Positions 481 through 58,155 of a DNA stretch of 64,000 bases are shown here, one piece after another. Source of the DNA: the human T2T-CHM13v2.0 reference genome, Homo sapiens. The stretch lies in NCBI RefSeq assembly GCF_009914755.1, contig NC_060947.1, one strand, 5' to 3'. The notes under the pieces were generated by a model. That model made no database searches. It worked only from the letters and a program-made list of their open reading frames with translations, and was not told where the DNA came from. The position numbers and the translations under genes are program-made. Position 1 is the stretch's first letter. Every line of letters begins with the position of its first letter.

Positions 481-1351
481 GCCATATAATAAATAATTTA
501 ATAAGTATTTTAAAGTCTTGTAGTGTAGAAATAGAAGTGTTCTTTTCTGCAATGTATTTTTTTCCTAAGAGTAGCATTTATCTGCTTTATAGTATATGTA
601 GTATATGACTCCATTCCAAAAACTTATAAATAGACTCTGCATTCACACATGATACTCTTGTCATAATTCTCAAGCTGTACAAGGTAGGGGGGAACAACTT
701 AGAATAAGTAGTGAGAAGATTAGTAAATGAAACTGATCAACAACTATTAGTAATCTTACTAAGAAGAATAAAAGAGAGTTCAGAAGACTGATGATGGAAG
801 AATATGATTTATTTATTTGAACATAAGAGTGGAAGTCTAAGAAAGATTCTAAATGTATTAAAAAGCACTTTGGAAAAAGAAATGGATGTTACTAAAAGTC
901 AATGTGGATTCACTAAGAATGTATTATGCGAAACCAGTGTTACTCAAACTGGTGTCCCTCAGAATACTAAATGTTAATAGAATGGTGCTGGAATTAAAAA
1001 ATCTGTTCTATGGCTAAATAAATATGGGAAACAGGTATTTAGCAAAGTATTTGAACACAGAACAATTCTATTTGTGTGTGTGTGTGTGTGTGTATGTGTG
1101 TATTACTTATCATTATTCTAGACTAACGGCCTATGAAATATAGTTTTGGTTAACTATAGTTTTAAGTTAATTTTCTTTATTTGTAGAGTTACGAGACTTG
1201 TGGAAAGGAAAATAAACAATCATGTTTTATTTTAATTTTTATAAGGAGTTTGAAGAAATTTCATAAATGTAAGATGAAAACATGTCTTCAGGATCACTTA
1301 AATATATTGATTCCATAACCCTTAAATAAATTTTGAAAATTTATATATCCC

Positions 1352-1497
1352 AGAGGCTCCTCAGCCGCATGCCAAGCAGTCAATCGCCTTAGCTCCCGCA
1401 GCCTGTGCTCCCAACTCTGTGGCTCCACCCGCTATTGTAGGCCAATAATCTGTTATGGAGCATGCCTTTACCCCGTTGGAGCCCCTGCTTTCCACTG
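1352..1497 (+). pseudogene. TPK1: Retroposed TPK1 (thiamin pyrophosphokinase 1) 5'UTR and first 43 coding nt, 5'-transduced with an L1
   Basis: GC-rich segment starting right after the 5' TSD; ATG 1455 encodes MEHAFTPLEPLLST(G), matching the recalled human TPK1 N-terminus; the match stops after c.43. Confidence 0.85.
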
Positions 1498-1551
1498 AAG
1501 TGCCTTCACCTTCTGCCATAATTGTGAGGCCTCTCCCAGCTACATGGAACT
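1498..1551 (+). mobile_element. 54-nt exonised THE1/MaLR LTR fragment inside the chimeric retrocopy
   Basis: aagtgccttcaccttctgccataattgtgaggcctctcccagctacatggaact matches the THE1 LTR 3' part and ends where intact LTRs continue GT(G/A)AGT (compare 22681-22712 in this window). Confidence 0.8.
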
Positions 1552-3093
1552 ATGGCCGAATAGGAACAGCTCCAGTCGGCAGATCCCAGCATGATCGACC
1601 CAGAACACGGGTGATTTCTGCATTTCCAACTGAGCTCTGAAGAGAGCAGTGGTTCTCCCAACATGGTGTTTGAGCTCTGAGAATGGACAGACTGCCTCCT
1701 CAAGTGGGTCCCTGACCCCTGTGTAGCCTAACTGGGAGACACTTCCCAGTAGGGGCCGACAGACACCTCATATAGGTGGGTGCCCCTCTGGGAGGAAGCT
1801 TCCAGAGGAAGGATCAGCCAGCAATATTTGCTGTTCTGCAACCTCCGCTGGTGATAGCCAGGCAAACAGGGTCTGGAGTGGACCTCCAGCAAACGCCAAC
1901 AGACCTGCAGCAGAGGGGCCTGACTGTTAGAAGGAAAGCTAACAAACAGAAAGGAATAGCATCAACATGAACAAAAAGGACATCTACACCAAAACCCCAT
2001 CTGTAGGTCACCAACATGAAAGACCAAAGGTAGCTAAAACCACAAAGATAGGGAGAAACCAGAGCAGAAAAGTTGAAAATTCTAAAAATCAGAGGAGCAC
2101 CTCCTCTCCTCCAAAGGATCACAGTTCCTCACCAGCAACGGAGCAAAGCTGGACGGAGAATGACTGATGAGTTGACAGAAGTAGGCTTCAGAAGGTTGGT
2201 AATAACAAACTTCTCCGAACTAAAGGAGCATGTTTGAACCCATTGCAAGGAAGCTAAAAACCTTGAAAAAAAGGTTAGACGAATGGCTAACTAGAATAAA
2301 CAGTGTAGAGAAGACCTTAAATGACCTGATGGAGCTGCAAACCATGGCATGAGAACTTCGTGACACATGCACATGCTTCAGTAGCCAATTTGAAAAGTGG
2401 AAGAAAGGCTATCAGTGACCAAAGATGAAATTAATGAGATAAAATGAGAAGACAAAGAGGAAAAAGAGTAAAAACAAACGAACAAAGCCTCCAAGAAATA
2501 TGGGACTATGTGAAAAGACCAAATCTACATTTGATTGGTGTACCTGAAAGTGTCAGGGAGAATGGGACCAAGTTGGAAAACACTCTGCAGGATATTGTCC
2601 AGGAGAACTTCCCCAACCTAGAAAGACCTAGAAAGACAGGCCAACATTCAACTTCAGGAAATACAGAGAACACCACAAAGATACTCCTCGAGAAGAGTAA
2701 GAGCAAGACACATAATTGTCAGATTCACCAAGGCTGAAATAAAGGAAAAAATGATAAGGGTAGCCAGGGAGGAAGGTCGAGTTACCCACAAAGGGAAGCC
2801 CATCAGACTAACAGCGGATCTCTCAGAAGAAACCCTACAAGCCAGAAGAGACTGGAGGCCAATATTCAACATTCTTAAAGAACTAATACATGTTCTAAGA
2901 TTACATTTACTAATTTAATAAATGTACTAAAATATTAAAAAAAAATTTCAACCCAGAATTTCATATTCAGCCAAACTAAGCTTCATAAGTGAAGGAGAAA
3001 TAAAATCCTTTACAGACAAGCAAATGCCAAGAGATTTTGTCACCACCAGGCTCAAAATAAAGGGATGGAGGAAGATCTACCAAGCAAATGGAA

Positions 3094-3128
<35 letters not shown>

Positions 3129-6100
3129 AGTGGTTGCAATCCTAGTCTCTGTTAAAACAGATTTTGAACCAACAAAGATCAAAAGAGATAAAGAAGGCCA
3201 TTACATGATGGTGAAGGGATTAATTCAACAAGAAGAGCTAACTATCCTAAATATATATGTACCCAATACAGGAGCACCCAGATTCATAAAGCAAGTCCTT
3301 AGAGACCTACAAAGAGACTTAGACTCACACACAATAATAATGGGAGACTTTAACACCCCAGTGGCAGTACTAGACAGATCAATGAGAAAGAAGGTTAACA
3401 AGGATATCCAGGGCTTGAACTCAGCTCTGCACCAAGCAGACCTAATAGACATCTACAGAACTCTCCACCCCAAATCAACATAATATACATTTTTCTCAGC
3501 ACCACATCACACTTATTCCAAAATTGACCACATAATTGGAAGAAAAACACTCCTCAGCAAATGTAAAAGAACAGAAATCACAACAAACTGTCTCTCAGAC
3601 CACAGTGCAAGCAAATTAGAACTCACGATTAAGAAACTCACTGAAAACTGCACAGCTTCATGGAAACCGAACAACTTGCTCCTGAGTGACTACTGGGTAT
3701 GTAATGAAATGAAGGCAGAAATAAAGATGTTCTTTGAAACCAATGAGAACAAACACACAACATACCAGAATCTCTGGGACACTTTTAAAGCAGTGTGTAG
3801 AGGAAAATTTATAGCACTAAATGCCCATAAGAGAAAGCAGGAAAGATCTCAAATCGACACCCTAACATCACAACTGAAAGAACTAGAGAAACAAGAGCAA
3901 ACACATTCAAAAGCTAGCAGAAGGCAAGAAATAACTAAGATCAGAGCAGAATGGAAAGAGATAGAGACACAAAAAACCCTTAAAAAATCAATGAATCCAT
4001 GAGCTGGTTTTTTGAAAAGATCAACAAAATTGATAGTTAGCAAGACTAATAAAGAAGAAAAGAGAGAAGAATCAAATAGATGCAATAAAAAAGGATAAAG
4101 GGGATATCACCACCGATCCCACAGAAATACAAATTACCCTCAGAGAATACTATAGACATCTCTACGCAAATAAACTAGAAAATCTACAACAAATGGATAA
4201 GTTCCTGGACACATACACCCTTCCAAGACTAAACCAGGAAGAATTTGAATCTCTGAATAGACCAAAAACAGGCTCTGAAATTGAGGCAATAATTACAACC
4301 ATAAAAAGTCCAGGAACAGATGGATTCACAGCCGAATTCTACCAGAGGTACAAAGAGGAGCTGGTACCATTCCTTCTGAAACTATTCCAATCAATAGAAA
4401 AAGAGGGAATCCTTGCTAACTCATTTTGTGAGGCCAACATCATCTTGATACCAAAGCCTGGTAAAGACACAACAAAAAAAGGGAATTTTAGACCAACATC
4501 CCTAATGAATATAGATGAGAAAATCCTCAAGAAAATACTGGCAAACTGAATCCAGTAGCACATCAAAAAGCTTATCCACCACAATCAGGACTGCTTCATC
4601 CCTGGGATGCAAGGCTGGTTCAAAATACACAAATCAATAAGCATAATCAATCACATAAACAGAACCAATGACAAAAACCACATGGTTATTTCAATAGATG
4701 CAGAAAAGGCCTTCGACAAAATTCAACAGCTCTTCATGCTAAAAACTCTCAATAAACAGGGTATTGATGGGACGTATCTCAAAATAATAAGAGCTATTTA
4801 TGACAAACCCACAGCCAATATAATACTGAATGGACAAAAACTGGAAACATTCCCTTTGAAAACCGGCACAAGACAAGGATGCCCTCTCTCACCACTCCTA
4901 TTCAACATAGTGTTGGAAGTTCTGGACAGGGCAATCAGGCAAGAGAAAGAAATAAAGTGTATTCGATTAGGAAAAGAGGAAGTCAAATTGTCCCTGTTTG
5001 CACATGACATGATTGTATATTTGGAAAACCCCATCGTTTCAGCCCCAAATCTCCTTAAGCTGATAAGCAACTTCAGCAAAGTCTCAGGATACAAAATCAA
5101 AGTGCAAAAATCACAAGCATTCTTATACACCAATAACAGACAAACAGAGAGCCAAATCATGAGTGAACTCCCATTCACAATTGCTAAAAAGAGAATAAAA
5201 TACCTAGGAATCCAACTTACAAGGGATGTGAAGGACCTCTTCAAGGAGAACTACAAACCACTGCTCAATGAAATAAAAGAGGACACAAACAAATGGAAAA
5301 ACATTCCATGCTCATGGATAGGAGGAATTAATATCGTGAAAGTGGCCATACTGCCCAAGATAATTTATAGATTCAATGCCATCCCCATCAAGATACCAAT
5401 GACTTTCTTCACAGAATTGGAAAAAACTACTTTAAAGTTCATGTGGAACCAAAAAAGAGCACGCATTGCCCAGACAATCCTAAGCAAAAAGAAAAAAGCT
5501 GGAGGCATCATGCTACCTGACTTCAAACTATACTACAAGGCTACAGTAACCAAAACAGCATAGTACTGGCACCAAAGCAGATATATACACCAATGAAACA
5601 GAATAGAGGCCTCAGAAATAGCACCACACATCTACAACCATCTGATCTTTGACAAACCTGACAAAAACAAGAAATGGGGAAAGGATTCCCTATTTAATAA
5701 ATGGTGCTGGGAAAACTGGCTAGCCATATGTAGAAAGCTGAAACTGGATCTCTTCCTTACACCTTATACAAAAATTAATTCAAGATGGATTAAAGACTTA
5801 AATGTTAGACCTAAAACCATAAAAACCCTAGAAGAAAACCTAGGCATTACCATTCAGGACACAGGCATGGGCAAGGGCTTCATGTCTAAAACACCAAAAG
5901 CAATGGCAACAAAAGCCAAAATTGACAAACGGGATCTAATTAAACTAAAGAGCTTTTGCACAGCAAAAGAAACTACCATCAGAGTGAACAGGCAACCTAC
6001 AGAATGGGAGAAAATTTTTGCAATCTACCCATCTGATGAAGGCCTAATATCCAGAATCTACAAAGAACTCAAACAAATTTACAAGAAAAAAACAACTCCA

Positions 6101-6945
6101 TCAAAAAGTGGGCAAAGGATATGAACAGGCACTTCTCAAAAGAAGACATTTATGCAGTCAACAGACACCAGAAAAAATGCTCATCATCACTGGCCGTCAG
6201 AGAAATGCAAATCAAAACCACAGTGAGATACCATCTTGTGCCAGTTAGAATGACAATCATTAAAAAGTCAGGAAACAACGGATGCTGGAGAGGATATGGA
6301 GAAATAGGAACACTTTTACACTGTTGTTGGGAGTGTAAATTAGTTCAACCATTGTGGAAGACAGTGTGGTGATCCCTCAAGGATCTAGAACTAGAAATAT
6401 CATTTGACCCAGCAATCCTATTACTGGATATATACCCAAAGGATCACAAACTATGCTACTATAAAGACACATGCACACGTATGTTTATTGCAGCACTATT
6501 CACAATAGTAAAGACTTGGAACTAACCCTAATGTCCATCAATGATAGACTGGATTAAGAAAATGTGGCACATGTACACCATGGAATACTATGCAGCCATA
6601 AAAAGGATGAGTTCATGTCCTTTGTAGGGACATGGATGAAGCTGGAGACCATCATTCTCAGCAAACTATCACAAGGACAGAAAACCAAACACTGTATATT
6701 CTCAGTCGTAGGTGGGAATTGACCACTGTGATCAGTTGGACACAGGGCGGGGAACATCACACACAGGGGCCTGTCAGGGGTGGGGCCTGGGGGAGGGATA
6801 GCATTAGGAGATATATCTAATGTAAACAACGAGTTGATGGGTGCAGCAAACCAACATGGCACATGTATACCTATGTATCAAACCTGCACATTGTGCACAT
6901 GTACCCTAGAAGTTACAGTATAATAAAAAAACATTAAAAAGAGAC
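1552..6945 (+). mobile_element. Near-full-length L1PA (L1PA6/7-like) with spliced 5'UTR and disrupted ORF1/ORF2
   Basis: L1 5' end atggccgaataggaacagctcc; ORF1 remnants (EQSLQEIWDYVKRPNL); ORF2 EN/RT/C-terminal fragments (3088-6372); 3'UTR and A-rich tail; TSD AATTTATATATCCC at 1338-1351 and 6946-6959. Confidence 0.95.
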
Positions 6946-8090
6946 AATTTATATATCCCTTCACACATCTTTAACACCAAACCTTATTCATTATTAATTA
7001 AAATTTAAATTATTTTTAAATTTTTTGGTTTTTTATTTATTTTTTATTTGTGTGGGTACATAGTATGTGCATATATTTATCGGTTACGTGATATATTTTG
7101 ATACAGACATGCAATGCATAATAATCATATTGGTGTAAATGGGGTATCCATCACCTCAAGTATTTATCCTTTGGTTACAAGCTATCCAATTATACTCTTT
7201 CAGTTTTTGAAAAAGGTATAATTATTTTTTACCATAGTCACACTGTTGTGCTAGCAAATACTAGGTCTTATTCATTCTTTCTGTTTTTTGAACCCATTAA
7301 CCATCCCAACTTCTCTCTGTCTAGCCACTACCCTTCCCAGCATCTGGTAACCATCATTCTAGTTTTTATCTTCATGAGTTCAATTGTTTTAATTTTTAAC
7401 ACCCACAAATAAGTGAGAATGTGTGATGTTTGTCTTTCTGTGCCTGGCTTATTTTATTTAATATAATGACCTACAGTGCCATCTATGTTGTTGCAAAGGA
7501 AAGGATCTCATTCTTTTTTATGACTGAATAGTAGTCAGTTGTGTATATGTACTACAATATCTTCATTCATTTGTTGACAGACCCTTAGGTTGCTTCCAAA
7601 TCTTGGCTATTGGGAATAGGGCTGTAATAAACATGAGAGTACAGATATCTCTTCGATATACTGATTTCCTTTCTTTTTGGCTATATACCTAGGAGTGGGA
7701 TTGCTGGATCATATGGTAGCTCTATTTTTAGTTTTTTGAGGAACTTCCAAACTGTTCTTTATAGTGGTTGTACTCACTTACATTACTACCAACAGTGTAT
7801 GTGGGTTCCCGTTTCTCCACATCCTTGCCAGCATCTGTTATTGCCGGTCTTTGGATAAAAGCCATTTTAACTGGGGTGAGATGATATATCATTGCGGTTT
7901 TGATACGCATTTCTCTGATGAGCAATGATGTTGAGTGTCTTTTCATATATCTGTTTATCATTTTTATGTCTTCATTTGAGAAATCTCTATTCAAATCTTT
8001 TGTCTATTTTTGAATTGGATTATTAGGCATTTTCCTACAGAACTGTTTGAGCTCCTTATATATTCTGGTTATAAATTCCTTGTCAGATGG

Positions 8091-27419: not shown

Positions 27420-27920
27420 ATGCGCAAGGCTTTGAGAACATGGGTTTTCAACATACAGCTTGCTCTTTCAGGATCTGTCTTCTTATTTGCATATATTTCT
27501 GAGCAGGAAGTTATGCGCAGTACTTTTAGTCTCCGCGTGAAAAGGTCCTTCATGCTAATCTAATTCAATTCAGTTCTCCTTTTTCTTTCTTCTTCTCCTC
27601 GCCCTCTTCTCAGGGAAGGAATCGTCAAAAATCAATGTTTCAACAGATCTCGCGGTGCTATTCGAGATTCCCTATTAAAAAAAAATAGAATTGATGCAAA
27701 CAGCCTGTTCCTTCCGGGGTTTTGGGCTGGAACTGCAGCGCTTAGAGAGCTCGGTGGAAGCTGCTAAAGGCGGAGGCGGGGCTCTGGCGAGTTCTCCTTC
27801 CACCTTCCCCCACCCTTCTCTGCCAACCGCTGTTTCAGCCCCTAGCTGGATTCCAGCCATTGCTGCAGCTGCTCCACAGCCCTTTTCAGGACCCAAACAA
27901 CCGCAGCCGCTGTTCCCAGG
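27420..27920. promoter_or_regulatory. SH3BGRL promoter/5'UTR, probably bidirectional with HMGN5
   Basis: Local CpG enrichment; octamer ATTTGCAT 27485-27492; ETS motifs CAGGAAGT 27504-27511 and CTTCCGG 27711-27717; GC box GAGGCGGGGC 27773-27782; directly upstream of the ATG. Confidence 0.8.
27457..27633 (-). other. HMGN5: Probable non-coding first exon of HMGN5 (head-to-head partner)
   Basis: Recalled head-to-head arrangement of HMGN5 and SH3BGRL at Xq21.1; minus-strand donor GCT|GTATGT at 27456-27451; the 5' boundary is approximate and not derivable from sequence alone. Confidence 0.5.
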
Positions 27921-27965
27921 ATGGTGATCCGTGTATATATTGCATCTTCCTCTGGCTCTACAGCG
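27921..27965 (+). CDS. SH3BGRL: SH3BGRL coding exon 1 (thioredoxin-fold SH3BGR-like protein), MVIRVYIASSSGSTA
   Basis: Kozak-type AGGATGG; 45 nt encode the known SH3BGRL N-terminus; canonical phase-0 donor GCG|GTAAGG; exon 2 not found in the window. Confidence 0.95.
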
Positions 27966-29598
27966 GTAAGGAGAGTGGGGAGTCCACCTTTGTTGTTTTC
28001 CTACACACCAGTCCTCTGCTGCCCCAGAACCATTAAAATGCAGAAGTTCCTCTGGCAGCTTCTCCTTTGGAAGACTCATGCATCCCCGATCCCACCCTTC
28101 TTCTTCCCTTTTTTCCCTTTGTTGCATCGATTTCATTTTTTTTTTTTTCCACATAGAGTTCAGCTTTGTTTGCTTCGTGACGTTGGGGGGCACATTTCTG
28201 CTTTGAAGGAAAACGAAAGCTACCAAGTTTTGGGAGATGGGAGATGGTGCTATACGGTCTTTAGGGTTACGTGAAGTCAAGTAAAATCGCACACTGGTGA
28301 GTTTCAAGAGTGAGACATTTGATGAATACGCCCTAAGTACTGAGACAAGGAGGAGTGCACTTCTGTAAAGGATGGGGGTACACATGCTGTAACTGGTGGG
28401 GATTGAGTGGAGGCCTACCGAGGCATTGTAATTATTCTGGGTGAGTGAGACCCTGGTAATAGAGTTATTTTGAGAGTGTGTAGAAGAAAGTGGTTAACTT
28501 GAGCTTGAAGGCCTGTTAGAACTAGACAAATTGGGAGGGGAAGTTGGTAACAATGACGTAAATTTTTTTTTAACTTAATATGACACGAGATTCAGTTTTC
28601 CCCCCATATTGTCCCTTATTTTGACTGTTTCTATTCTTTCAAAATATTTTACTTTTAAATTTCTCTCACTGCTTCAAGTATATTGAGAACTGGATAGGGA
28701 GCTCAGTGGCTTCTTGTGTAGTGGCAGCCTGAGTTGCTGCTGCTTCAAATGATAGGACTTTCTCTTTCATGGATTCACTTACTCTTAATTTAGAATAACA
28801 AATTTTCAGCAGCTGTCGGGAGAATATGATAAACTGGGGTGCAAGATGAGTGTATATCCATGATAAATGAAAGTGCTTCTGCTTTTTACAACTCAAGAGA
28901 AAGGCAGACAGTGGCAAGAACAGATGTGTGGGTTCAGATTGTAGGGTATAGGAACCCCTTCCCTCTTCTTGAGCTTTAGAGCAGCAGCTAATCCAGGTTG
29001 TTGTGTGTTTTTATTTTTTGGCTTGTTTATTTACACCTGAGAGGATGTGGAATGGAAGTGGAGGTTATGTTAAATCACAAGAACCTTGATATTTGAACTT
29101 TGTCTTCTCTGGCCACCATGTGTGGATATGTTTATGCAATTTTGGAATATCAGAAAATTTAATCTTACATTTTTTGAATAAGTTTAGGTTAAAAAAAAGA
29201 ACACCTTTTATATTTCCTTTGGACCTAATTTTATGAGCCTCTTGCTTTATTATTTTCCATACATGTTGTCTAATATTTCAAAGTAAAATTTGAGTTGCTC
29301 AGAGTCTCAACTCAATCCAATAATTGTAAAGTCCAACTTAATGCCTTTAGTTAAACCCCTAATGAGACTGAACAGATCAGGCAGTTAGTTTTGCTTTGGG
29401 AGTCATACAGTTTCAATACTGTTATTTATTCTTTGCTTTCTCCTTCCTCTACCCCTTCTTTAAAAGTAGATTCAACAAGAAACTGCTTTCAGAATTTCTA
29501 TTCAAGTAAGAATAACTGCACCTCTCTTTGTTAAGTCTTAAGTTTCCAAGAGCCTTAGAAATGGCTGCTGTCTTCTATTATTTCCTTTATTGGACTCC

Positions 29599-29805
29599 TT
29601 TTTTTTTTTATTTAGATTTCAACTTTTATTTTAGATTCAGAGGGTACATGTGCAGATTTGATGCATGGGTATACTGTGCAAGGTTTGGGGTACCATTGAA
29701 CCTCTCACCCTGGTAGTGGGCGTAGTACCCAATAGGTAATTTTACAACCTTTGCCTTCCTCCCTCCCTCCTCTGTAGTCTTCAGTGTCTATTCTTCCCAT
29801 CTTTG
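29599..29805 (-). mobile_element. Short older L1PA/L1PB 3' end
   Basis: ttttattttagattcagagggtacatgtgcagatttg...tacccaataggtaa. Confidence 0.75.
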
Positions 29806-30402
29806 TTGGACTTTATTGTTGAAGACCATGCAAATGGCAGATGTTTATGGTATTTGTATTTTATTTCAATTTTTTGTCATGAGTAGTTAGAAATTTATTA
29901 GAAATTTATCTACTGTAGTAATTATAGTTCAATGAACCTGTTATCAAAATTCTACTTCATAATGCCAAAATAAATCCTTGCTTTATTATACTATTACAAC
30001 ACTTTTAAATAATACCAAAACAGTGTAAAGTGAGTACTTCTTTGTAACATGAATGGAGTGGTGATTATTTACTTCAGAAAGGCACTTTTCAGTTTGCTGT
30101 ACTAAAGTTTTCCTTTAAGATTGATGCCCTGTTTGTTTTAATACATAAGTTAGAAAGTTTTGAGCAAATATCCTGATGGAGTCCTACAATTGCACATAGT
30201 GAGATACTTCAATAAGTGACTAAGTTTAGTTGTCTGAAGAACAGTTAAAAGCTTCTTTGCTTTGGATTGGTGGTAGCTGACTGTTTCTTAATCTTCCTAC
30301 TGGTTGTCATTAAAAAAAAAAACAACAGATGTTATACTGGTTATACTGGGCAGAGTGGGGGATCTGGATCTGTGATAATTGGCAAGACAATGTTAACTTA
30401 TT

Positions 30403-30604
<202 letters not shown>

Positions 30605-30647
30605 TTAGAAATGAAAACAAGTATGTTGGTCTTTGCAATGGATTTCA

Positions 30648-31206
30648 TTTTTTATTTTTATTGATATATCATAATTGTGCATATTTATGGGGGACATATG
30701 ATCTTTTGATACATGCACACAATGTGTGATGATCAAATTAGGGTAATTAGGATATCCGTTACCGCAAACATTTATCATTTATTTGTGGTGGGAACATTCC
30801 AAACATTCTAGCTGTTTTTTCTAGCTATACAGTAAATTATATTGGTAACTATAGCCACCCTATTGTGCAATTGAACAGTGGATCTTATTCCTTCTATCTA
30901 ACTGTATTTGTGTACTCATTAACCAACCTCTCTTAATCCTTCTTTCCCCCTACCCTTCTCAGCCTCTGGTAACCACCATCCATTCTACCCAATATCTTCA
31001 TGGGATCGACTTTTTTAGCTCCCACATGGGTGAGAACGTGTGGTATGTCTTTTGTCTTTCTGTGTTATGTCTTAGTTCACTTAAAATAATGTCCTCCAGG
31101 CTCATCCATGTTGTCACAAATAACAGAATATCATTTTTATGGCTGAATAATATTTTATTTTGTGTGTGTATATATATGTGTGTATATATAAGTGTGTGTA
31201 TATATA

Positions 31207-31251
<45 letters not shown>

Positions 31252-32020
31252 CACATTTCCTTTATTCATTCACCGTTGATGGACACTTAGCCACATATCA
31301 TAGTTATTTTGAATAGTTCTTTAATAAACATGGGAGTGCAGATATTTCTTTGATATACTGATATCCTTTCTTTTGGATATATACCCAAAAGTGAGATTGC
31401 TAAATCATGTGATAGTTCTATTTTTGTTTTTTGAGGAACCTCTATGCTGTTTTCCATGGCAGCTCTAGATCATGTGGTAGTTCTATTTTTGTTTTTTTGA
31501 GAAATCTCTGTGCTGTTTTCCATAGCAGCTGTACTAATTTACATTCCCAGCAAAAGTGTACTAGTATTCCGCTTTCTCAGTGCCCTTACCAGCATTTGTT
31601 ATCTTTTTGGTAATAGCCATTTTAATTGGAGTGAGATGTTATCTCATTATAGTTTTGATTTGCATTTTCCTGATGGTTAGTGATGCGGAACATTTTTTCT
31701 TATACCTGTTTGCGATTTGTATGTCTTCTTTTGTGAAATGTTTATTGAAATCATTTGCCATTTAAAAAAATTGGATTATTTGTTTTTTTGTGGGTTTCTT
31801 TTTTGCTACTGACTTCCTTATATATTCCACATATTAATCTCTTGTCAGATGGATAGTTGGAAAATATTTCCTCCCATTTTTAGGTTTCTCCTTACTCTAT
31901 TGATTGTTTCCTTTGCTGTGCAGAAGCTTTTTAGCTTAATATAGTTCCATTTGTCTATTTTTACTTTCATTGCCTGTTTTTGAGGTTTTACCCAAAAAAT
32001 CTTTGCCCAGACCAATGTAA
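30648..32020 (-). mobile_element. L1MA 3' portion with (TG/TA)n and an internal tandem duplication (~31400-31530)
   Basis: L1MA 3'UTR motifs; ORF2 fragment [21 protein letters not shown]. Confidence 0.8.
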
Positions 32021-33694
32021 TGGACTTCTTGATGGTAACCATAATAATGATAGTCAGTAGAAGCCCCTAAGTATGTCAGATACTATCTCATTTTTAAAAA
32101 TAATCCTTTGAATTAAGCACTATGATTATCTCTGTTTTTCAGAGAAGGAAATACAGTATACAGGTTCAAAGAGTAAATAACTTTCTCAAGGTTACACAGT
32201 TGGTAAGCCATAGAGCTTGAATCCAAGCAAGATGTTTGAATCCAAAGAATATGTACTTAACCACCAAGAAATGCATCCTCCCAGTGATTTATGGCAACTA
32301 GTAGGCATGAGGAAATAAATTTGAACACGAGTAAGAGGTAGGGGAGGAAGTAAGTCCTGTAAGTGGAAGAAGAGTTGCCTGGGCATGTGCATATAGGGGA
32401 ATAGAGAAATGGGCAGCTAGTGTGTAGGAGGGATATTGTGTCTAAAAGGGAATGTCTGTAAGTAGGGTAAGTGACTGTTCACCCAAGGCCAAGAAGATAG
32501 AGAAGACCTACACAGTTGGAAAGCCTAAACTGGTCTGGTATAGGTCAAGGTATAAAATTCAGGCCTTAATACTGTTTAGTTTGATGGGAACCATTTAACA
32601 AGAATGCAGCTTCCAAGTAGTCTGTCTATATGAAGTGATTTCTGCCTGTTCAGAATTGTTTATACATGTCTTAACTCACTGTGACACAGGTATATGCCAC
32701 GTTTTGTTTCTTGAGATTGTAATGCCTTGTAAATTTACATTTAATGGAAAATGAATAGTAATCTCAGAGCCTATATAAGTTAATAAATTGCAATAACTTC
32801 TTAACAAAAATCAACATTGGCCTAGGATGAGAATTGCTAGAGAGATGATAGCTTGGAGAATTTTAACTGGTTTGGGAGTTTTTTCCCTATACATATTTCC
32901 CCAAGACCCATAATGATCTCCATTTCATGGCATCTATGCATTCTATTTGTGCCTTGGTGTAGAAATTTTAAGATTGTGGGAAATAGATGATTTCTTAGGG
33001 TTTTAATTGTGAAGTAACTTTTAAAAATTGATGTATTTTATATAACTGATAAAACAGAAGCTAGTTGTAGCTTGGATTGTTCACAAATATACATAATTTT
33101 TCTCTATGGTTGTACTCTGCACAATTTATAACAACAGATAAAACAATGTTCTGGATTGTGTAATTAGTCACTAGTCACAGTATTTTCTTCATCTGGATAA
33201 TATAGAAGAGCAAGACACAGTTCTTCATTATGTGGTTCTCAAATAATTGTACTTTAGGCGCAGAATGTTTTGCTGCTCTGTCTGTATTTATACATTAAAC
33301 ATTGATTTTGTGTATGCAAGGATTTTTGTCATATCTTCCAAAGTTTGTTTGAATGTTGTTTAAAGGTGTTCATAGAAGATGTTCACTTAGAAGACTAAAA
33401 TTAGAAACTGTTCACCAAATGACTGGGACATACTTTTTGGAGGTCCCTAACAGTGGAAAATGGCAGCTTTCACATGGCAAATGTGGAGACTCAAGATCAG
33501 TGCTTTCAAATTGATGCTTAGTATTTGATGGCTGATTTCCTAAATTTCACAGAAACATTGGAAGAATTTGGCCCAAAAAGAGGCTGATCAGTGATCAGTG
33601 ATGGTGATTCTTGGGCATTTAAAAAGATGCTTAAATGTTACATGGTTGTAGGGAAGAATATATTGTGAAAGTTTAGTAAAAGATTAATTATCTG

Positions 33695-34026
<332 letters not shown>

Positions 34027-34721
34027 TTATTTCTAGCACAAAGACTAGTTACTTTGTTGAGGAAGGGTTTTGATCAATAAACCCTCCACCAGGGTTAGCC
34101 TAGGGAAAAAATAAATAAACCTCAAATGTCAATCAGATTGAATGTTCTCTGTAGCTAATCTTTAAAATCTTTTATGAAATATATATTGTGCAATTAACCA
34201 AGTATCATTTACAAAAACATTTCCTGCTTTAATGGAATTATCAAGGTTGAATTTTGTATTTCATTTCTTACTGATACAAGTAAACAGATTAAGAGAGAAG
34301 CTGCTGGTTAACTATCTGACCATCTGTTTGCTTTCAGATCTACTTTGCGGCCCACTAGGAGGCCTTTTAAACCCAGTCTTTAATTACTTTCTTCAATCCA
34401 GACCAAGGTTAAACAAAAGTACATTTAGAGAGACGAGGCGGTTCATTTATGATGACTGTTTTCATTAATATGAGAGACAAACCTGACCTTTTACACTTGG
34501 GCAGCAGAGAAGAATTTTAAGCAAGGAGATTTTTTTCTAGCCCAGGTCTTGCCTGTTGGTTTTATTAGGTTTGCTTGAAATCTTGCAGATTGCCAGAACA
34601 TCAGGCAAAAAATTCAAATATAAGTTTAAAAATATCATAACAAATTCAAAGACTGTATATTTAAGTGTTCAATGATGCTAGGTTTTTTGTTGTTGTATTG
34701 CCCTTTCGTTAGCATAACTAA

Positions 34722-35027
<306 letters not shown>

Positions 35028-36917
35028 CTAAGATTTGACTTTAGTAATAGTAAAGACAACACTTATTTATGCATTGTATATGTCAGGCAAGGTGCCCAGG
35101 GCTTTACCTACATTATTTTACTTAATTTATCTTTACAATAATATTTTAACATAGTAATAACTACTATTAGATTCATTTTACCTAATTGGAGGGGGTATCT
35201 CTAAGATCCAGAAACATAGGTACATTGGTCAAGACTGAAGAGCTAGAAATGACAGGGCTGTGATCAGAACTCTGGTTGTTCGGACTTCAGAACCCACTCC
35301 TAAACACTGTGTTATTTACACATCCTCTGTTTATAGGTATTGAATAGAAATTGTCAATACTACATAAAAATCCTGTTATATGATTTTGAAATACAATTGC
35401 CATTCAAGAGGGGATGATGTCTAAGTAGGCAAATGTGTTCTCATTCATAACCCGTACTCGAGAGTGAGATGAGAGTTGGCACTGGTGGGCAGGCTGGGTG
35501 TAGGGAGGATAGTAGCACCATGTTCTTTTAAAATGTGGTTCTTTTTTTAAAATCAAATGAATTCATCGAGGGCACACTTAAAAATAATATTTGTCTGTAC
35601 TTTCTTATGCTGGCCTGTGTTACATACTGAATTTTTATGACTGATTCTCTTGCATGTTATGTGGCTATAGACCAACATAATTAAAAGGTGGTTTCTATGA
35701 TTCTGTAAATCTAAATTAACCAGGAAGGCAGTACTGCTATAACTTGTAAACTCTGGTTTTAGACTCTAGTCCTTGATTTCTGTCCCTTTGGCTTAGTCCT
35801 TTTTGGAAATGAGACCCTATCCTAGAGTTAGGGTCTAGCCAAGCCTTTCTGCTTGGGGGATTTCCAAAAATGAGTCAAGACAAATAAAATTTCACCTTTC
35901 AAACACCAGAGAATATTCATCTTAGGTAACATTTACTACATGAGAAAATTTTCTGTTTCACCATCACCTTTCAGCCAGTTGTTTCATTATAAGTGCAGCA
36001 TGTTTTTCTGTTAAAATTATCTGTAAATATATATTTAATAGTAGTTGTATGATATTGGAGACCGTTCTCTTCAGTATGTTATATCAAATTTGATTTAGAA
36101 GGAAGACAAGCATATATAATTACTTAATTTATTAAACATATGATCAATCATCTTACTTTAATTTCTCATGCAAATTGTCAGCTTTAGTGGGTAATAATAT
36201 TAAGAGCTATAATTCATTGAGTCAGGCACACCGGTAAGAACTTTACATGTATTGTTTCATTTTTCTGACAATTCAATGAAGCTAGTACTCTTATTATCTC
36301 TGTTTTTAAGAAGAGAGGCTCAGAGAACTAGCCAGGTCACAGAGCTAGTAAAGTACCCCCCAGGTTTGTCTGATTCCAGGGCCCATGATCTGAAGCCCTA
36401 TGCTATTCTTCCCACTTGATGATATTCACTAATTACCCACTCTGAATGCAGCTCTGAAACTGATTTACAAGTCGTTGTAATACTTCTTTTCTGATGAACT
36501 TGAAAAACCATGAAAAATACTTCTTAATTAACTGGTCTATAGCAATACGTGGTCTATAGAAATACTAAGGATAATTCTGGTGGTCTGTTACATCAAGTGG
36601 AGAACTTGAGTTTATCAGAGGAGACAATCAAAGTTATAAGAGCTCAGCCTATACTATTAGTTAGAATGCAGAACATGTACCTTTATCTCAATTTAAGAAA
36701 ATCATTTTATTGCAATCTAATGAAAAGTAGATAAGATGAATTGTTTTTTGAAGGGATTTTAAAGCTTTTTTAGCTGTAAGGGTGAGATATGTTTTATTGG
36801 CTATTGCCTGTGTGATTTGAGTAGGTCATAAAACTTTCTTTGCCTCTCATCATTCTCACAAGCTGAATATGAGTAACTTAAAATGAAGAGTATCATGAAA
36901 GAAAGCTTCTAGAAGTG

Positions 36918-37661
<744 letters not shown>

Positions 37662-37829
37662 AAGTGTTGTTGGAAATTTATTACTAAAAATAATGAAATC
37701 TGATCTCAGACTTTCAGAAAAAACATAATTGGTCTTGTGATTCAGGTAAATAATTTTAACTTCTCAAAGGATTCAGTAGTTGGGGTGAAATATTTTCAGT
37801 GAATTTCTACTTGAAACAAGAGTAAAGGT

Positions 37830-37980
37830 AGACCTGGCACAATGGCTCATGTCTGTAATCCTAGTAACTTGGGAGGCCCAGCGGGGGACGATCATTTGAG
37901 GCTAGGCGTTTGAGACCAGCTTGGGGAACAAAGTGAGACCCTGTCTCTACAAAAAATAAAAAATAAAAAAAAAAGAATAA
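37830..37980 (+). mobile_element. Alu monomer (FLAM-like)
   Basis: Left-arm-only Alu sequence followed by an A-rich tail. Confidence 0.7.
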
Positions 37981-39509
37981 AGATGTTAAATTTAAACTTT
38001 CTAAACAATGTTGAGGGGACAATCAGGGTTGTTGGTGGTGATGAGACAATTTGCCAGGTAACAAGACAAACACCTGGTGGGTTTTAAAGTGAGCAAAATG
38101 GAAGTGTGACAAGATCCAAAGTAAGGACAATTTTATACTCGACTTTGAATTCATGCTTTGAATTCATTCTTTTTTTTTGAAAAAGAGGATGTTGAAAGGC
38201 AAGTAAAAAATATTGTGAAAAAAATGTGACTAAACATTTACAAATTGCCCATCAGATCAGATTAGGATTTTTTATTAGATCTTTAAGTTAAAGTTGAAGA
38301 ATGAGTTTTGTTTAGTGTGTGTTTATATCCAATTAGAAATTGTGTGGCTATGATTAGGTGCTGTATGGGGAGCTTAATAGAGGAGTGCATATCTCACTTG
38401 GGATTTAATCTGACTCAACCCATGAGTTGAACTCGAGAAGTAAAGTACACATCCCAGGGGATCCTTATGCTGCCCAAATGCCAGGGACTGCTTGGGACAG
38501 GTCCCACCAGACACACAGCAAGTGTGCACTTTCCAAAGTCAGTCACTCTAGGTTTCATGAAAACTCAAAGCATCTAATACGATCTTGTCAAAATTATGTC
38601 TACATGTCCAAGTGGATTTACTGTAAATCAATGTCTAATTACTTTTTGAAAATTATTCACTTACAGAGATTGAATTGACTTTTTTTCATTTCATAATGTG
38701 GTTGAGTAGGAAAGTCTTAGAATTGTACTTTTTCGTTGAAGTATAAAACTAGCGATAGAGTGCATAAACATTATATTGCTTAAAATATATGGAGAATGGC
38801 TCAAAAGGAGCTATTAGCACAAAAAATGAGATTCTGTCTTGTGCAACAGCTCATGTAAGAGAAGAGATTTTGGGGAAGAAAATGAAATTTGAAACCTTGG
38901 ATTGTCAGAACATGGATTTCTCCAAAAGCAGTTATAAGAAAAAAATAGTTGACTATCTCCCAGTGATTGAGGTAATCATGACCGAATTCTACACCCACAC
39001 CTCCACAAAGTACCACCACTTGATGTCATACACTTTCTTCAAATATTTGAAGTTGGAATGGTAGGCATTAATTTGTGTATGTTTTAGTAAAAATATATAG
39101 CAATTTTTATTTCATATGATTAATGGTGAGTCATTATGCTAGGTAAAAGCATATGATAAAAAGATAGATGGCATGTTGCACATAATAGCGTTATGCATTT
39201 TTCCTAAATATTTCCTTAAGCTTTAGCAATTGCCTCTTAGCAACTGTTTCAAGTTATATAAGGCAGATTTCTGTTCCTAATGAACAGATTTTGAGGCAAG
39301 GGGTATATTGTTACAGTTTTTTTTTTAACTTTCCTCCTCATTTATTAATGGACCCGTCAAAAGTTAAAAATACTTTGTAGAACTCTACTGTAGAATAGTA
39401 CTATTTCAAAATTCAACAAAGTGATGAGTAGCAACTTATCATCTACCTCTTTCACTTCTTATTACACAGAATATAATTATAAACTGGTAAGTTTTTAAAT
39501 AAATATTTT

Positions 39510-40085
39510 TTCACATATGAGTGGATGGCCTGTTGAAATTCAAGTGCAAAACAGGCCACCCAAGTGGAGATTTGCAGCTGCTAGATGGAAACGTGTGACT
39601 AGAGTTTGGGAAAGATGGTGGACGGAGAGTAGATATGGGAGTCATTTATGTATAGGTGCTACTTCAAACTATGGAAAAGAATGAACTCACTAGGAAAAAG
39701 GAATTATGGCATGAGATGAGAAGAGAGCTGAAAACAAAGACAGGACTTTGCTGAATGTTCACATTTCGGAGGAGGTGAAAGAAACAGGAACAGCAGGAAA
39801 CACGTGGATTCATTAGGAAAGATCAGAGTAGCATCTTGTAATAGAAACCATGGTAGGGAAGAATTTTCAAGGACAATGAACATTGTTAGTTCCATACAGG
39901 AATTTTGAAAACTGATAAAAGGTCATTGAATTCAAAATAAGGAAATGATTAGTGACCTTGGAGAAAAGCGGTTTCAGTAGATTGGTGAAAACAACAGCCT
40001 GATTGGGAAAGGTTAAGAAATGGAGCAAATAATGAGGAAGAGATGAGTATATAGACTAATATTTGACTAGTTTGGTGAGAGGAAA
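39510..40085. mobile_element. L2 fragment
   Basis: Purine-rich L2 motifs (gtagatatgggagtcat; gtgaccttggagaaaagcggtttcagtaga). Confidence 0.6.
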
Positions 40086-40862
40086 GGAAAAAGAAGATTC
40101 CTGAAAATAGTTAAAATAAAATGATATTATTCCAGCGTTATTAAAAAAGAAGAAAATTAAGCGAACTGGAATTTTTCCTAGAAAAATCCTGTTTGTCTGT
40201 TTTCCCAGCCTAGATTTATCAGATCATTGTTGATTCTTTAATTTCACCATAGAATCAACTTTAAACTACCTCAGTGTCTAGTGGCTGAAATATTCAACAA
40301 TTAATATTTGGAAATTGTGACAGAGACAGAACATGAATATTTGTGATAGGAAAGGATGAAAGCAAATAAATATTTTTATATTGTTCTACTTGAGAATGCC
40401 CAATGAATAATTTTATCAGACAAATGCATATTATTTCAAAAAGCATTTTATTACCCTCGTAAAAAATAAGCAGGAAAGTCAAAGTTCTCATAAAAAGTAT
40501 GAAGAACAGCTGGACAATTTTTATTACCACCATTTATTTGCTGAAATTTAGTAAAGATCAGTTTGATTCTTTAGAACATATTGCTTTTTAAACTTTGACT
40601 TCTGGCTATGGGATGGATTATTTTAGTCATAAGAAAGTATAACTGATCTAATACTTTACACTTATTTTCCCTTCTCGCTAATGCCAACCTAGCTTCTAGG
40701 AGGCTGGAAAGAGTATACGGTTAGAAAATTGGTAGGCAGATCACTTCCTTTAAGATTTCTGGGCTGACTTAAGATCTGGTGAATACTATTCAAGAAAGAA
40801 GATAAAGAAAGGAAAATGGAATTAAATCAGAAGTTTGGGATTCCATATCAATGACATTATTC

Positions 40863-40920
40863 AATTCTAGTGGAGAGAGTTTATGGAGCTCCGGTTCCAT
40901 AAACTCTCTCCCCTAGAATT
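40863..40920. repeat. Inverted repeat, 25-bp arms (1 mismatch), 8-nt spacer
   Basis: AATTCTAGTGGAGAGAGTTTATGGA-gctccggt-TCCATAAACTCTCTCCCCTAGAATT. Confidence 0.9.
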
Positions 40921-41989
40921 TCATACTTCTACATTCAATACTTTTACATTGAACTAACTTGATCGTATGTGCACATACATGTACCATATAAACACTTGGC
41001 AGAGATGTTCAAGTGCAGAGCCTTGCACAGGGTGGACAATTTGAATAGATTATGTAGATAGGTCCTGCCGATTCTGAATCTATGATTTGTGCTTAGGAAT
41101 TATCTTGCTTTCACCCTCAAATTCACTCATTCATTGAGAATATACTTGTTGCCAGCCACTGGACTAAACTCTGGACCCAGGCTCCGAAGGACGAGAAAAG
41201 GCCAGGAATAAAGATTTTCTCAGCCTCCTCCCTGAGCCAGAATGAAGGAGAAAGTATGGGGATGTCAATTTGAGGGACTAAGTTACATGGTCTGCAAATA
41301 AGAAAGGAGTCAAGGCAGAGGTACTTTAGGGACTCTCTGCCTGCCTGTTGATAAGCTGCCTCATAGAAATTAGCATTCTCCTGTCCCCCAACCAGTGTGC
41401 AAATATATTCTGCCTACCCTTTCCAGTCCCCCTGACAATGATCTTCTTATTGAATGACAGTTCTGAAAAGTGATAAGTTATTAGTTCAGTTGAACTGTTA
41501 CCCAATTTTCTTGCCATTTCACTAGACAGAAGTGTGGAAAGTAGATCCTAAGCACAATTTGCACTTCCTTTTTATACCGGAACATTCCACAAAGACATTA
41601 CTATTATACAGTTCTGATTAAAGCCAAATGTTGCAGTCATAATAAATTAAAGATTTGTGGCTTCATTGTCTGTTTCTAACATTTAGCCTGGGATTATGGA
41701 ACAAAGCCCACTAAATTCCCTTTTTCATTATCTAAAAAATGCCTTTTAGACTTTTCTATAATTCCCTCACCTTGAGATCATCCTAGCTTTGATCTTTTGT
41801 GTAAACAATTATGTCTTATAAAAATCTGAATTGTATTCATTCCTTTATTTATAATCTCAACCACTTTCTGTTTGTCACTCTTCCTGCTCTCCTTGTTTTT
41901 TTTCCCTCTCTTTTCCAAGGGTTATAGGATTCCTGACAGTTTGGTTTGAAGTTTAGTTCAGTATTCTATATATCAATATGCATTATTTA

Positions 41990-47040: not shown

Positions 47041-47879
47041 TTCTTCACCCCCTTCTTAACTTTTGGAGTTAATTCATGTCGCTGCTACAATTAAACTTGA
47101 TAAGAATCACCTATTGTGCCAGAATTTTCAATGCTGTGGCTGCTCAATGGTTGCCTTTGGCCAACTGTATGGCAAAAAGTCTAAGTGCTAAAGTAATTAT
47201 TTCTCCTTAGGTTTCCGTCAGATTACTATATAAGTAAAGATAATTTTTGCTCCACCTTTCCCCTTTATCTTTTTCCCCAGTATATTTGTAACAATCCCTA
47301 CTGCAAACATTTGAACTCTGGCAAAATGGGTGTCTTACTCCCAGGAGTTAATAAGCATAAGAATCCATTTGGGCCCTGTTGCTCTAGTGGATAAATTTTG
47401 TCCTAGCATCAAGGTTGTTCTTTTTAAAATAGCATTATGGCTTTCCACATTTTATAATGGTGCTTTAGGTGAACTAAAACAATGATATCTAGGTAGAAAG
47501 GTCATGCAGTAAAACATTACTCTTTTTTGTTATTAATGTCAATTGTTATTAAGAAAGCTTGAGCATAACACTGAAAGTTCCTTCTCCATTGTATAGAAAT
47601 TGACTTTTAGTCTGTTCCACCTTTATCACCATCAAACATATTGCAAATAAAATATTAGAAGCATATGTATAGAAGGGATCATGGGAAATCATCTAGTCCA
47701 TCCATGTAAGGACTGTTTGTGAATTGTCCCAGAAATATTATTATCAATTTTCTCTTAGTAAATTCTCCAAGGAAAGAAATATACAACCTCCTTTGGTAAT
47801 ATGCTGCAGTAATACTTTATTCCTTGTTGTCCTAGACTCTGCGTCTAAGATTACAGAAATCTGGCTGACCATTGAAGGA

Positions 47880-49042: not shown

Positions 49043-49429
49043 TTCTTTTTACCTCTTTTTTTTGTGGTGAAGTGGGAGATCAGATTCTTGAAACTGTGGA
49101 AGCAGGGGAAATCAAGCACCATACAATACATGGAGAGCCAGTAGTTATCAATTTAATATATATTTCCTAAGTACCCACTGATAAAATACTCAACTCTGTA
49201 GAGAACAAGGCCTTAATTCTGAAAGAGCTAATTTTGTTTTGAAAAGCTTAAAATAAGTCTGATGATTTTTTTTTTCTTTTCTACCTCTCTTCTCTTTTTA
49301 GGAAGCTTTCTGTGTATTGCTTCTGCCTGTGGATCAGTACAGTGTAAGATCATGTGATAAGGGGAATATTCCTATATGAAACTCAAGACATACTGAATTA
49401 AAACCAATTTTAAAATTAGTGTTTTAAAC

Positions 49430-49710
49430 TTTTTTTTTTCTTTGCGATAGGGTCACGCTCTGTGTTCCAGGCTAGATTGCAGTGATGCAGTCACAGCTCA
49501 CTACAGCCTCCAACTTCTGGGCTCAAGCAATCTTCCCATCTCAGTACCCTCCCTAGTACCAGGTCTGACTGATTAAAAAAAACTTTTTTTTGTAGAAATG
49601 GGATCTTGCTATGTTGCCCAGGCTGGTCTTGAATTCCTGGCCTCAAGTGACCCTCCAGTCTTGGCCTCCCAATGTGTTGGGATTACAGGTGTGAATCACT
49701 GCACCTGGCC
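49430..49710 (-). mobile_element. AluJ-like
   Basis: gatagggtcacgctctgtgttccaggctag...gtgaatcactgcacctggcc. Confidence 0.85.

Positions 49711-58121: not shown

Positions 58122-58122
<1 letters not shown>

Positions 58123-58154
<32 letters not shown>
58123..58154. repeat. (GAT)n microsatellite
   Basis: About 10 perfect GAT units. Confidence 0.9.

Positions 58155-58155
<1 letters not shown>

What the first reader, a model, noticed from the sequence alone, without database searches (positions are those of the whole stretch)
1338..6959. Retrotransposed spliced chimera: TPK1 exon(s) + THE1 exon + L1, one insertion with TSDs
Seen: a 14-bp TSD (AATTTATATATCCC, 1338-1351 and 6946-6959) brackets the whole 5.6-kb unit, so the 200 non-L1 bases at its 5' end arrived with the L1. 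1352-1497 encodes MEHAFTPLEPLLST, 1498-1551 is MaLR LTR sequence and 1552 onward is L1. Knowledge (recalled): this is the TPK1 N-terminus, TPK1 is on chr7, and its first coding exon ends at c.43, exactly where the match stops. Inference: a germline transcript from the TPK1 promoter was spliced through an exonised THE1 into an intronic L1 and retrotransposed to X. This is a host-promoter-driven spliced 5' transduction, a fossil of an otherwise hidden TPK1-L1 fusion isoform and a route to exon shuffling. I cannot tell whether this copy has already been catalogued.
Basis: partly seen in the sequence, partly recalled or inferred. Interest (0 to 1): 0.92.

Follow-up and report, generated by a model that had tools for sequence, protein, structure and literature searches.

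The report
Known TPK1 exon–L1 chimeric retrocopy

Summary
One target-site duplication (14 bp exact, 17 bp with one mismatch) brackets a 5.6-kb unit. It contains TPK1 exon 1 (1352-1438), TPK1 exon 2 up to c.43 (1439-1497), a 54-nt MaLR LTR piece (1498-1551) and a decayed L1 (1552 onward) with an A-rich tail. All junctions sit at GT/AG splice sites.

The unit is therefore a retrocopy of a spliced TPK1-MaLR-L1 chimeric RNA.

It is not new. Table S5 of Cell Genomics 2026;6(5):101165 lists this copy (hg38 chrX:81175623-81181203, gene TPK1) among 17 exon-L1 chimeras.

The 214 kb downstream of TPK1 exon 2 (introns 2-4) holds no full-length sense L1. Its only MaLR match, the intron-4 LTR used in the published mapping, matches 41 of 54 nt, whereas five unrelated copies elsewhere match 49-51 of 54. 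Cis-splicing to a since-lost intronic L1 versus trans-splicing stays open. About 170 kb of TPK1 and all outgroup genomes could not be examined.

The parts
1335..1351 (+). 5' target-site duplication (14 bp exact at 1338-1351; 17 bp GAAAATTTATATATCCC with 1 mismatch to the 3' copy). It is preceded by TTTT, giving a TT/GAAA-type L1 endonuclease site.
   Evidence: Table S5 of PMC13174262
1352..1438 (+). TPK1 exon 1 (5'UTR) copy. It differs from the source by 14 mismatches and 2 one-base gaps over 87 nt, many at CpGs of the source CpG-rich exon.
1439..1497 (+). TPK1 exon 2 copy (1 mismatch in 59 nt). ATG at 1455; the exon ends at c.43, where the source has a GTACTG donor.
1498..1551 (+). 54-nt MaLR LTR cassette exon. 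In other genomic copies the same stretch is flanked by AG (4 of 5) and GT (5 of 5).
1552..1634 (+). L1 5'UTR first piece. It starts at ATGGCCGAATAGG, directly after the CCAAG of related L1s, and ends at CAACTGAG, the L1 internal splice donor.
1635..6924 (+). Rest of the L1 (remaining 5'UTR from CTCTGAAGAGAG, ORF1, ORF2, 3'UTR). The reading frames are broken into pieces; the longest ATG ORF is 318 aa.
2444..2734 (+). ORF1 remnant (Pfam Transposase_22 at 2e-16, Tnp_22_trimer at 8e-8)
3088..3480 (+). ORF2 endonuclease remnant (Exo_endo_phos_2 at 3.9e-5, below the curated cut-off)
4607..5560 (+). ORF2 reverse-transcriptase remnant (RVT_1 at 1.3e-28)
6925..6942 (+). Short, degenerate poly(A) tail (AAAAAAACATTAAAAAGA)
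6943..6959 (+). 3' target-site duplication (GACAATTTATATATCCC; 14 bp exact at 6946-6959)
1455..1640 (+). 61-codon ORF from the TPK1 ATG through the MaLR exon into the L1 5'UTR. It is a by-product of the fusion and there is no evidence of use.

Best explanation
The unit is one L1-mediated (target-primed reverse transcription) insertion of a chimeric, fully processed RNA. The RNA began at the TPK1 promoter on chromosome 7 and was spliced four times: (1) TPK1 exon 1 to exon 2; (2) exon 2 to a 54-nt MaLR LTR cassette exon; (3) that exon to an AG acceptor at about nucleotide 13-14 of a near full-length L1; and (4) an intron of about 500 bp removed from the L1 5'UTR (SpIRE 97/622 type). The L1's own proteins then copied this RNA into an intron of HMGN5 on the X chromosome, in antisense orientation, probably some tens of millions of years ago. 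It has since decayed.

Shown: the TSD, the tail, the exon identities and the position of all four junctions at GT/AG sites.

Inferred: because only about 14 L1 nucleotides lie upstream of the acceptor used, the L1 must have been read through from upstream as part of a longer transcript. It was not started at its own promoter.

Open: that longer transcript may have been TPK1's own pre-mRNA, with an intronic L1 that was never fixed or was later lost. Alternatively it came from another locus and was joined to TPK1 exon 2 in trans. I put these at roughly even odds.
For: One insertion: the TSD pair is unique in the window and not expected by chance. There is an A-rich tail and a TT/GAAA target.

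TPK1 part: exons 1 and 2 are joined exactly where the source has GTAAGT...TGCAG, and exon 2 ends where the source has GTACTG. The TPK1 N-terminus is confirmed against PDB 9hjc_A.

MaLR piece: it aligns as one contiguous block to other LTR copies, with AG before it in 4 of 5 and GT after it in 5 of 5.

L1 entry: the L1 starts right after CCAAG in 6 of 6 related L1s examined (A2 and A3).

L1 internal gap: it is a 491-514-bp gap relative to 3 full-length relatives. In those relatives it is bounded by GAG|GT in 2 of 3 (the third has AT) and by GACAG| in 3 of 3. The junction is the same as in published SpIRE97/622 elements.

Single copy: the TPK1 segment and the LTR-L1 junction each occur once in the genome.

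Independent catalogue: this copy is listed as a TPK1/L1 chimera found by a multi-species-alignment pipeline that looks for flanking sequence arriving with the L1.
Against: No source locus was found. There is no full-length sense L1 in the 214 kb from TPK1 exon 2 to exon 5. There is none in the 31.5 kb downstream of one of the two best-matching LTRs, on C1.

The MaLR exon cannot be assigned to any one copy. The two best matches (C1, C5) tie at 51 of 54.

I could not examine outgroup genomes, so co-arrival of the exons and the L1 rests on the TSD and on the paper's pipeline. The L1 subfamily and the age are estimates only.
Confidence: 0.92

Rival explanations
1. Fully cis origin as in the published mapping. 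TPK1 pre-mRNA skipped exons 3-4 and spliced exon 2 to the THE1-type LTR in intron 4 (CHM13 C7:145807713-145807754; hg38 chr7:144627255-144627296). It then spliced to an intronic L1 further downstream that was polymorphic and later lost.
For: Cis-splicing is the common case. A sense-oriented LTR with GT at the right place exists in TPK1. The AG acceptor at L1 nt 13-14 needs upstream intron sequence, which an intronic L1 would have. RAP1GDS1/L1PA2 is a documented cis precedent.
Against: That LTR matches only 41 of 54 nt, with 9 or more differences, and the first 5 nt do not align. It carries about 11 extra nt and has GG, not AG, at the homologous acceptor. In the 27-nt core it has 5 mismatches (my count), while 2180 genomic sites have 2 or fewer.

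The paper itself needed an unexplained 'CA' and a questioned 9-bp match to fit it. A sense MaLR LTR somewhere in a 385-kb gene is expected by chance (my estimate from recalled copy numbers). No L1 lies between this LTR and exon 5.
Confidence: 0.25
2. Trans-splicing. The donor of TPK1 exon 2, which faces a 70-kb intron, was joined to the MaLR exon of a separate transcript from another locus. That transcript already contained the LTR and a downstream L1.
For: Copies outside TPK1 match the exon far better: 49-51 of 54 in 5 of 5 examined. One, at C1:241279295-241279349, is the only other place in the genome with the exact 33-nt 3' part of the exon and also has the AAGTGCC start preceded by AG.

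The paper reports that 15 of the 17 chimeras lack an intronic L1 at their gene locus and that the introns involved are long, and it favours trans-splicing.
Against: Trans-splicing is rare in mammals (established knowledge). No L1 lies within 31.5 kb downstream of the C1 LTR. The C1 copy is not uniquely best, because C5:25784709 ties at 51 of 54, so the exon is simply close to its family consensus. The AAGTGCCTT(N)CACCTTC start occurs at 122 sites.
Confidence: 0.35
3. No splicing between the parts. The L1 reverse transcriptase switched templates, or an RNA ligase joined RNAs, from the 5' end of an L1 RNA to an unrelated TPK1-LTR RNA, as in U6/L1 chimeras.
For: Such chimeras exist and are also bracketed by one TSD.
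Against: The break falls exactly between a family GT donor and the L1 CCAAG| acceptor, with no untemplated bases or microhomology. The L1 is near full length, whereas U6-type chimeras are typically 5'-truncated. The paper likewise disfavours template switching where a splice junction is present.
Confidence: 0.04
4. DNA-level coincidence: separate insertions or a segmental duplication happened to place TPK1-like DNA next to an L1.
For: None found.
Against: The TPK1 intron is precisely absent. A single TSD encloses everything. There is no other copy of the segment.
Confidence: 0.01

Closest known systems
mRNA/lncRNA-LINE-1 5' chimeric insertions (17 in hg38), Cell Genomics 2026;6(5):101165, PMC13174262, Table S5
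   Same: This is the same object. The row chrX:81175826-81181203, with non-L1 part chrX:81175623-81175822 and gene TPK1, prints the same 200-nt non-L1 sequence and the same L1 start. It shows the class features: first exons in sense orientation, a near full-length L1, a TSD and a splice donor at the junction.
   Different: The table splits the MaLR piece into a 42-nt match in TPK1 intron 4 plus 'CA' plus a questioned 9-bp match. Here the 54 nt align as one MaLR cassette exon with family AG/GT flanks, and the TPK1 LTR is a poor match. TPK1 is not mentioned in the main text. Supplementary figures in PDF could not be read.
RAP1GDS1/L1PA2 promoter co-option (same paper)
   Same: Two 5' host exons are spliced onto an L1 that has the 97/622-type 5'UTR deletion.
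   Different: For RAP1GDS1 a source SpIRE sits in intron 2 and gave two offspring. For TPK1 no source was found in the 214 kb examined, and only one copy exists.
SpIRE97/622 (Larson et al. 2018, PLoS Biol 16:e2003067)
   Same: The same donor (..CTGAG|GT) and acceptor (..GACAG|CT) within the L1 5'UTR.
   Different: Classical SpIREs keep the L1's own 5' end. Here the first ~14 nt are replaced by host exons. The coordinates were not found in that paper's 8 text supplements. Their probe required more than 95% identity to a modern L1.
SVA-F1 / MAST2 exon 1 capture (recalled from memory, no call)
   Same: A host first exon spliced onto a retrotransposon and then mobilised.
   Different: That case involves SVA rather than L1 and founded a family. 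This is a single dead copy.
Classical unspliced L1 5' transduction
   Same: Extra 5' sequence lies inside the TSD because transcription started upstream of the L1.
   Different: Here the extra sequence is not contiguous flanking DNA. It consists of three spliced exons from at least one distant locus.

Membership tests
L1 target-primed reverse transcription insertion | Target-site duplication flanking the whole insert | tested here: met
   14 bp exact, 17 bp with 1 mismatch. These are the only 2 matches in the window; 0 of 100 shuffles reach 2.
L1 target-primed reverse transcription insertion | 3' poly(A) tail and an A/T-rich endonuclease target | tested here: met
   Degenerate A-rich tail at 6925-6942. 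The target is TTTT|GAAAA, listed as YT/GAAA in Table S5.
Spliced host-exon/L1 5' chimera | The 5' non-L1 segment maps to the first exons of a gene, in sense orientation, with introns removed | tested here: met
   TPK1 exons 1 and 2 are joined at the source GT..AG intron.
Spliced host-exon/L1 5' chimera | The captured exon ends at a splice donor and the L1 part begins after an AG | tested here: met
   Exon 2 donor GTACTG. LTR donor GT in 5 of 5 family copies. CCAAG| before the L1 start in 6 of 6 related L1s.
Spliced host-exon/L1 5' chimera | The exon part and the L1 arrived at the same time (empty site in outgroups) | not testable with these tools
   No primate genomes are held. This rests on the single TSD and on the paper's alignment-based pipeline.
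Cis-spliced intronic-source chimera (RAP1GDS1 type) | A sense full-length L1 downstream of the captured exon in the same gene | tested here: not met
   None in C7:145802355-146016354 (214 kb, exon 2 to exon 5).
Cis-spliced intronic-source chimera (RAP1GDS1 type) | The extra (MaLR) exon maps to the same gene with high identity and splice sites | tested here: inconclusive
   The intron-4 LTR matches 41 of 54 nt, has GT present, and has no AG at the homologous site. Five unrelated copies match 49-51 of 54.
SpIRE97/622 | 5'UTR deletion bounded by the L1 donor near nt 97 and the acceptor near nt 622 | tested here: met
   A 491-514-bp gap versus 3 full-length relatives. GT is present in 2 of 3 and AG in 3 of 3.
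SpIRE97/622 | Otherwise complete L1 with its own 5' end | tested here: not met
   The L1 starts at ATGGCC, and the preceding ~14 nt are replaced by exons.
U6/L1-type template-switch chimera | Junction at non-splice positions, usually with a 5'-truncated L1 | tested here: not met
   The junction lies at donor and acceptor positions, and the L1 is near full length.

The most novel reading that the evidence does not exclude
The MaLR exon did not come from TPK1 at all. On that reading the RNA joined pieces of at least two, perhaps three, loci: TPK1 on chr7, an LTR elsewhere (for example C1:241279295), and an L1. This fossil would then be direct sequence evidence for germline trans-splicing feeding L1 retrotransposition.

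A related pattern appears in the published table. 5 of the 10 chimeras that keep an L1PA-type 5' start carry the 97/622 splice, against about 1.8% of full-length L1s. This would mean exon capture and intra-5'UTR splicing are mechanistically linked, for example because promoter-dead SpIREs can move only when rescued by host transcripts.
Probability: 0.35. Interest if true: 0.55.

Novelty: already known. Interest (0 to 1): 0.27.

Why it matters
Such fossils show that host promoters and first exons can be spliced onto L1 and carried to new places. That is a route to exon shuffling and to new L1 promoters. This copy adds little beyond the 2026 catalogue.

It also adds a caution that the published in-gene mapping of the MaLR piece is weak. 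That caution bears on the open cis-versus-trans question for the whole class.

Tried and rejected
Source L1 in TPK1: BLAST of the unit against C7:145816355-146016354 and 145802355-145816354 found only truncated or antisense L1 pieces. The sense fragments covered window 3048-6287, 5149-6941 and 5792-6939 at 86-90%.

Source LTR:
- A short-word BLAST in the first 200 kb found nothing longer than 19 nt.
- The whole 54-mer with up to 3 mismatches found only itself. The window has two 1-nt indels relative to the family, so ungapped search is blunt.
- The 27-nt core gave 2180 sites at 2 or fewer mismatches and 27 exact, none of the exact ones on C7 (only the first 100 rows were listed).
- The 5' 16/17-mer gave 122 sites. 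None of the 10 C7 hits is in TPK1 (22 rows were not listed).
- The 3' 33/34-mer found only C1:241279295 and the window.
- Exact searches would miss a source that has mutated, so these absences are weak evidence.

C1 locus: no L1 in the 31.5 kb downstream.

Closest L1: the 5' 901 nt gave 7315 candidates, of which 40 were scored, the best at 89-91% identity. No parent stands out.

Sibling copies: the LTR-L1 junction 30-mer with up to 3 mismatches found only itself.

Larson 2018 supplements: no occurrence of the hg38 coordinates in 8 files.

Not done: L1 subfamily assignment (no consensus library here) and the outgroup empty-site check (no primate genomes).


Full report
**What is in the sequence**

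The 14-mer AATTTATATATCCC lies at 1338-1351 and 6946-6959. Allowing one mismatch, these are the only two matches in the 64-kb window. Shuffles expect 0.08, and 0 of 100 shuffles reach two. The repeat extends to 17 bp (1335-1351 and 6943-6959) with one mismatch in this assembly. An A-rich tail at 6925-6942 precedes the 3' copy, and TTTT precedes the 5' copy. Everything between the two copies is therefore one L1-type insertion.

**The TPK1 part**

A search of the window's own genome with 1352-1551 gave two matches on C7, minus strand. Window 1354-1438 matches 146016762-146016847 at 83%, and window 1439-1497 matches 146016354-146016412 at 98%.

Reading the source locus shows that exon 1 ends ..CCATTGT|GTAAGT. 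Exon 2 is preceded by ..AATGCAG| and followed by |GTACTG. The copy joins the two exons exactly, so the roughly 350-bp intron is gone.

The ATG is at 1455 and the exon ends 43 nt later. The peptide MEHAFTPLEPLLST equals residues 1-14 of PDB 9hjc_A, thiamine pyrophosphokinase 1.

Differences from the source are 14 mismatches and 2 one-base gaps in exon 1 and 1 mismatch in exon 2. That is 17 events in 146 nt. By my reading of that alignment, at least 6 are C-to-T or G-to-A changes at CpGs of the source. This is what a CpG-island exon copied into methylated DNA should show. The remaining roughly 7% suggests an age of some tens of millions of years (inference).

**The MaLR exon**

Window 1498-1551 aligns as one block to MaLR LTR copies elsewhere. 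In those copies the block is preceded by AG in 4 of 5 and followed by GT (GTGAGT, GTAAGT or similar) in 5 of 5. A pyrimidine-rich run lies upstream. It behaves as a cassette exon.

**The L1**

L1 homology begins at 1552 (ATGGCCGAATAGG). In 6 of 6 related L1s examined, the preceding bases are CAAG, so an AG acceptor sits right before the entry point.

At 1634|1635 the L1 5'UTR jumps from ..CCAACTGAG to CTCTGAAGAGAG... Three full-length relatives carry 491-514 bp here. The stretch is bounded by GAG|GT in 2 of 3 (AT in the third) and by ..CTGACAG| in 3 of 3.

This is the SpIRE97/622 splice of Larson et al. 2018 (passages).

The coding regions are remnants: ORF1 (Transposase_22), endonuclease and RVT_1 pieces, with a longest ORF of 318 aa. 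The unit is unique. The TPK1 segment and the LTR-L1 junction each occur once in the genome.

**Already known**

A full-text search led to 'Comparative genomics reveals LINE-1 recombination with diverse RNAs' (Cell Genomics 2026; PMC13174262; preprint 10.1101/2025.02.02.635956). I read passages, section 13 whole and Table S5 whole.

Table S5 lists this copy. Its entries are:
- L1 at chrX:81175826-81181203.
- Both TSD copies as GAAAATTTATATATCCC.
- Non-L1 part at chrX:81175623-81175822.
- Gene TPK1 (ENST00000378098.8) with exons 1 and 2 mapped.
- The L1 given in two overlapping pieces.
- The same 200-nt sequence as in the window.

TPK1 does not occur in the main text. The PDF supplements could not be read. 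The class is described there as 17 insertions. Fifteen of those chimeras lack an intronic L1 at their gene locus, and the authors favour trans-splicing. RAP1GDS1/L1PA2 is their cis case.

**Where did the MaLR exon and the L1 come from?**

Exon 3 (GNLKYCLVILNQ) lies near C7:145946554, so intron 2 is about 70 kb.

In the 200 kb below exon 2 there is no MaLR match longer than 19 nt and no full-length sense L1. In the next 14 kb there is one LTR, at 145807713-145807754 on the minus strand in intron 4. This is the site used in Table S5.

That LTR matches 41 of 54 nt. The first 5 nt do not align, it has about 11 extra nt, and it has GG rather than AG at the homologous acceptor. Five copies on other chromosomes match 49-51 of 54.

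In the 27-nt core, 2180 genomic sites have 2 or fewer mismatches, whereas the TPK1 LTR has 5 by my count. Calibrating on the TPK1 exons (17 events in 146 nt), a true source should differ by about 6 events in 54 nt. The TPK1 LTR's 9 or more is high but not excluded.

The C1 copy (241279295-241279349, minus strand) is the only other site with the exact 33-nt 3' part, and it shares the AAGTGCC start after an AG. However, C5:25784709 ties with it at 51 of 54, and no L1 lies within 31.5 kb downstream of the C1 copy. The source is therefore unresolved.

About 170 kb of TPK1 could not be fetched.

**Mechanism**

Splicing explains all four junctions. Template switching or ligation would not place breaks at donor and acceptor positions (rival, about 4%).

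Only about 14 L1 nucleotides precede the acceptor used. That is too few for a branch point and pyrimidine tract (established splicing knowledge). The L1 must therefore have been transcribed from upstream as part of a longer RNA (inference).

I cannot decide whether that RNA was TPK1's own, with an unfixed intronic L1, or another locus's RNA joined in trans.

**Verdict**

The object is already catalogued, so interest is low to moderate.

Noticed in passing
Table S5 of PMC13174262; window 1634|1635: Ten rows of the table keep an L1PA-type 5' start. Of these, 5 (MAP3K13, RAP1GDS1 twice, ENSG00000233928, TPK1) show the 97/622-type 5'UTR splice in the printed L1 sequence, and PALLD starts at that acceptor. 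Larson 2018 reports about 1.8% of full-length L1PA1-6 as SpIRE97/622. A term search of the main text found SpIRE discussed only for RAP1GDS1.
   Followed up: partly
G000 C3:137332245-137333135 (-), C18:61766569-61767477 (-), C23:67209620-67210509 (+); loci L029-L031: Three other L1 copies are 87-89% identical to this one. They carry the same 5'UTR splice deletion but keep their own 5' ends (..CCAAGATGGCC). Larson 2018 used a probe requiring more than 95% identity to a modern L1 and found none older than L1PA6, so these may be uncatalogued older SpIREs. Their subfamily was not determined.
   Followed up: partly
window 6943-6959: The 3' TSD copy reads GACAATTT.. in this assembly, while Table S5 gives GAAAATTT.. 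for hg38. This is either an assembly or individual variant, or smoothing in the table.
   Followed up: no
window 1338-6959 relative to HMGN5 (span -60566..27633, minus strand): The chimera sits inside HMGN5 intron 1 in antisense orientation, about 20 kb from the HMGN5/SH3BGRL bidirectional promoter at 27.4-28.0 kb (hub annotation).
   Followed up: no
G000 C7:145978011-145983924 (+) and 145931413-145938362 (-), inside TPK1 introns 2-3: Several L1 fragments lie in these introns: an older antisense, nearly full-length L1, and truncated sense pieces at 86-93% identity to the window L1. None has a sense 5'UTR.
   Followed up: partly
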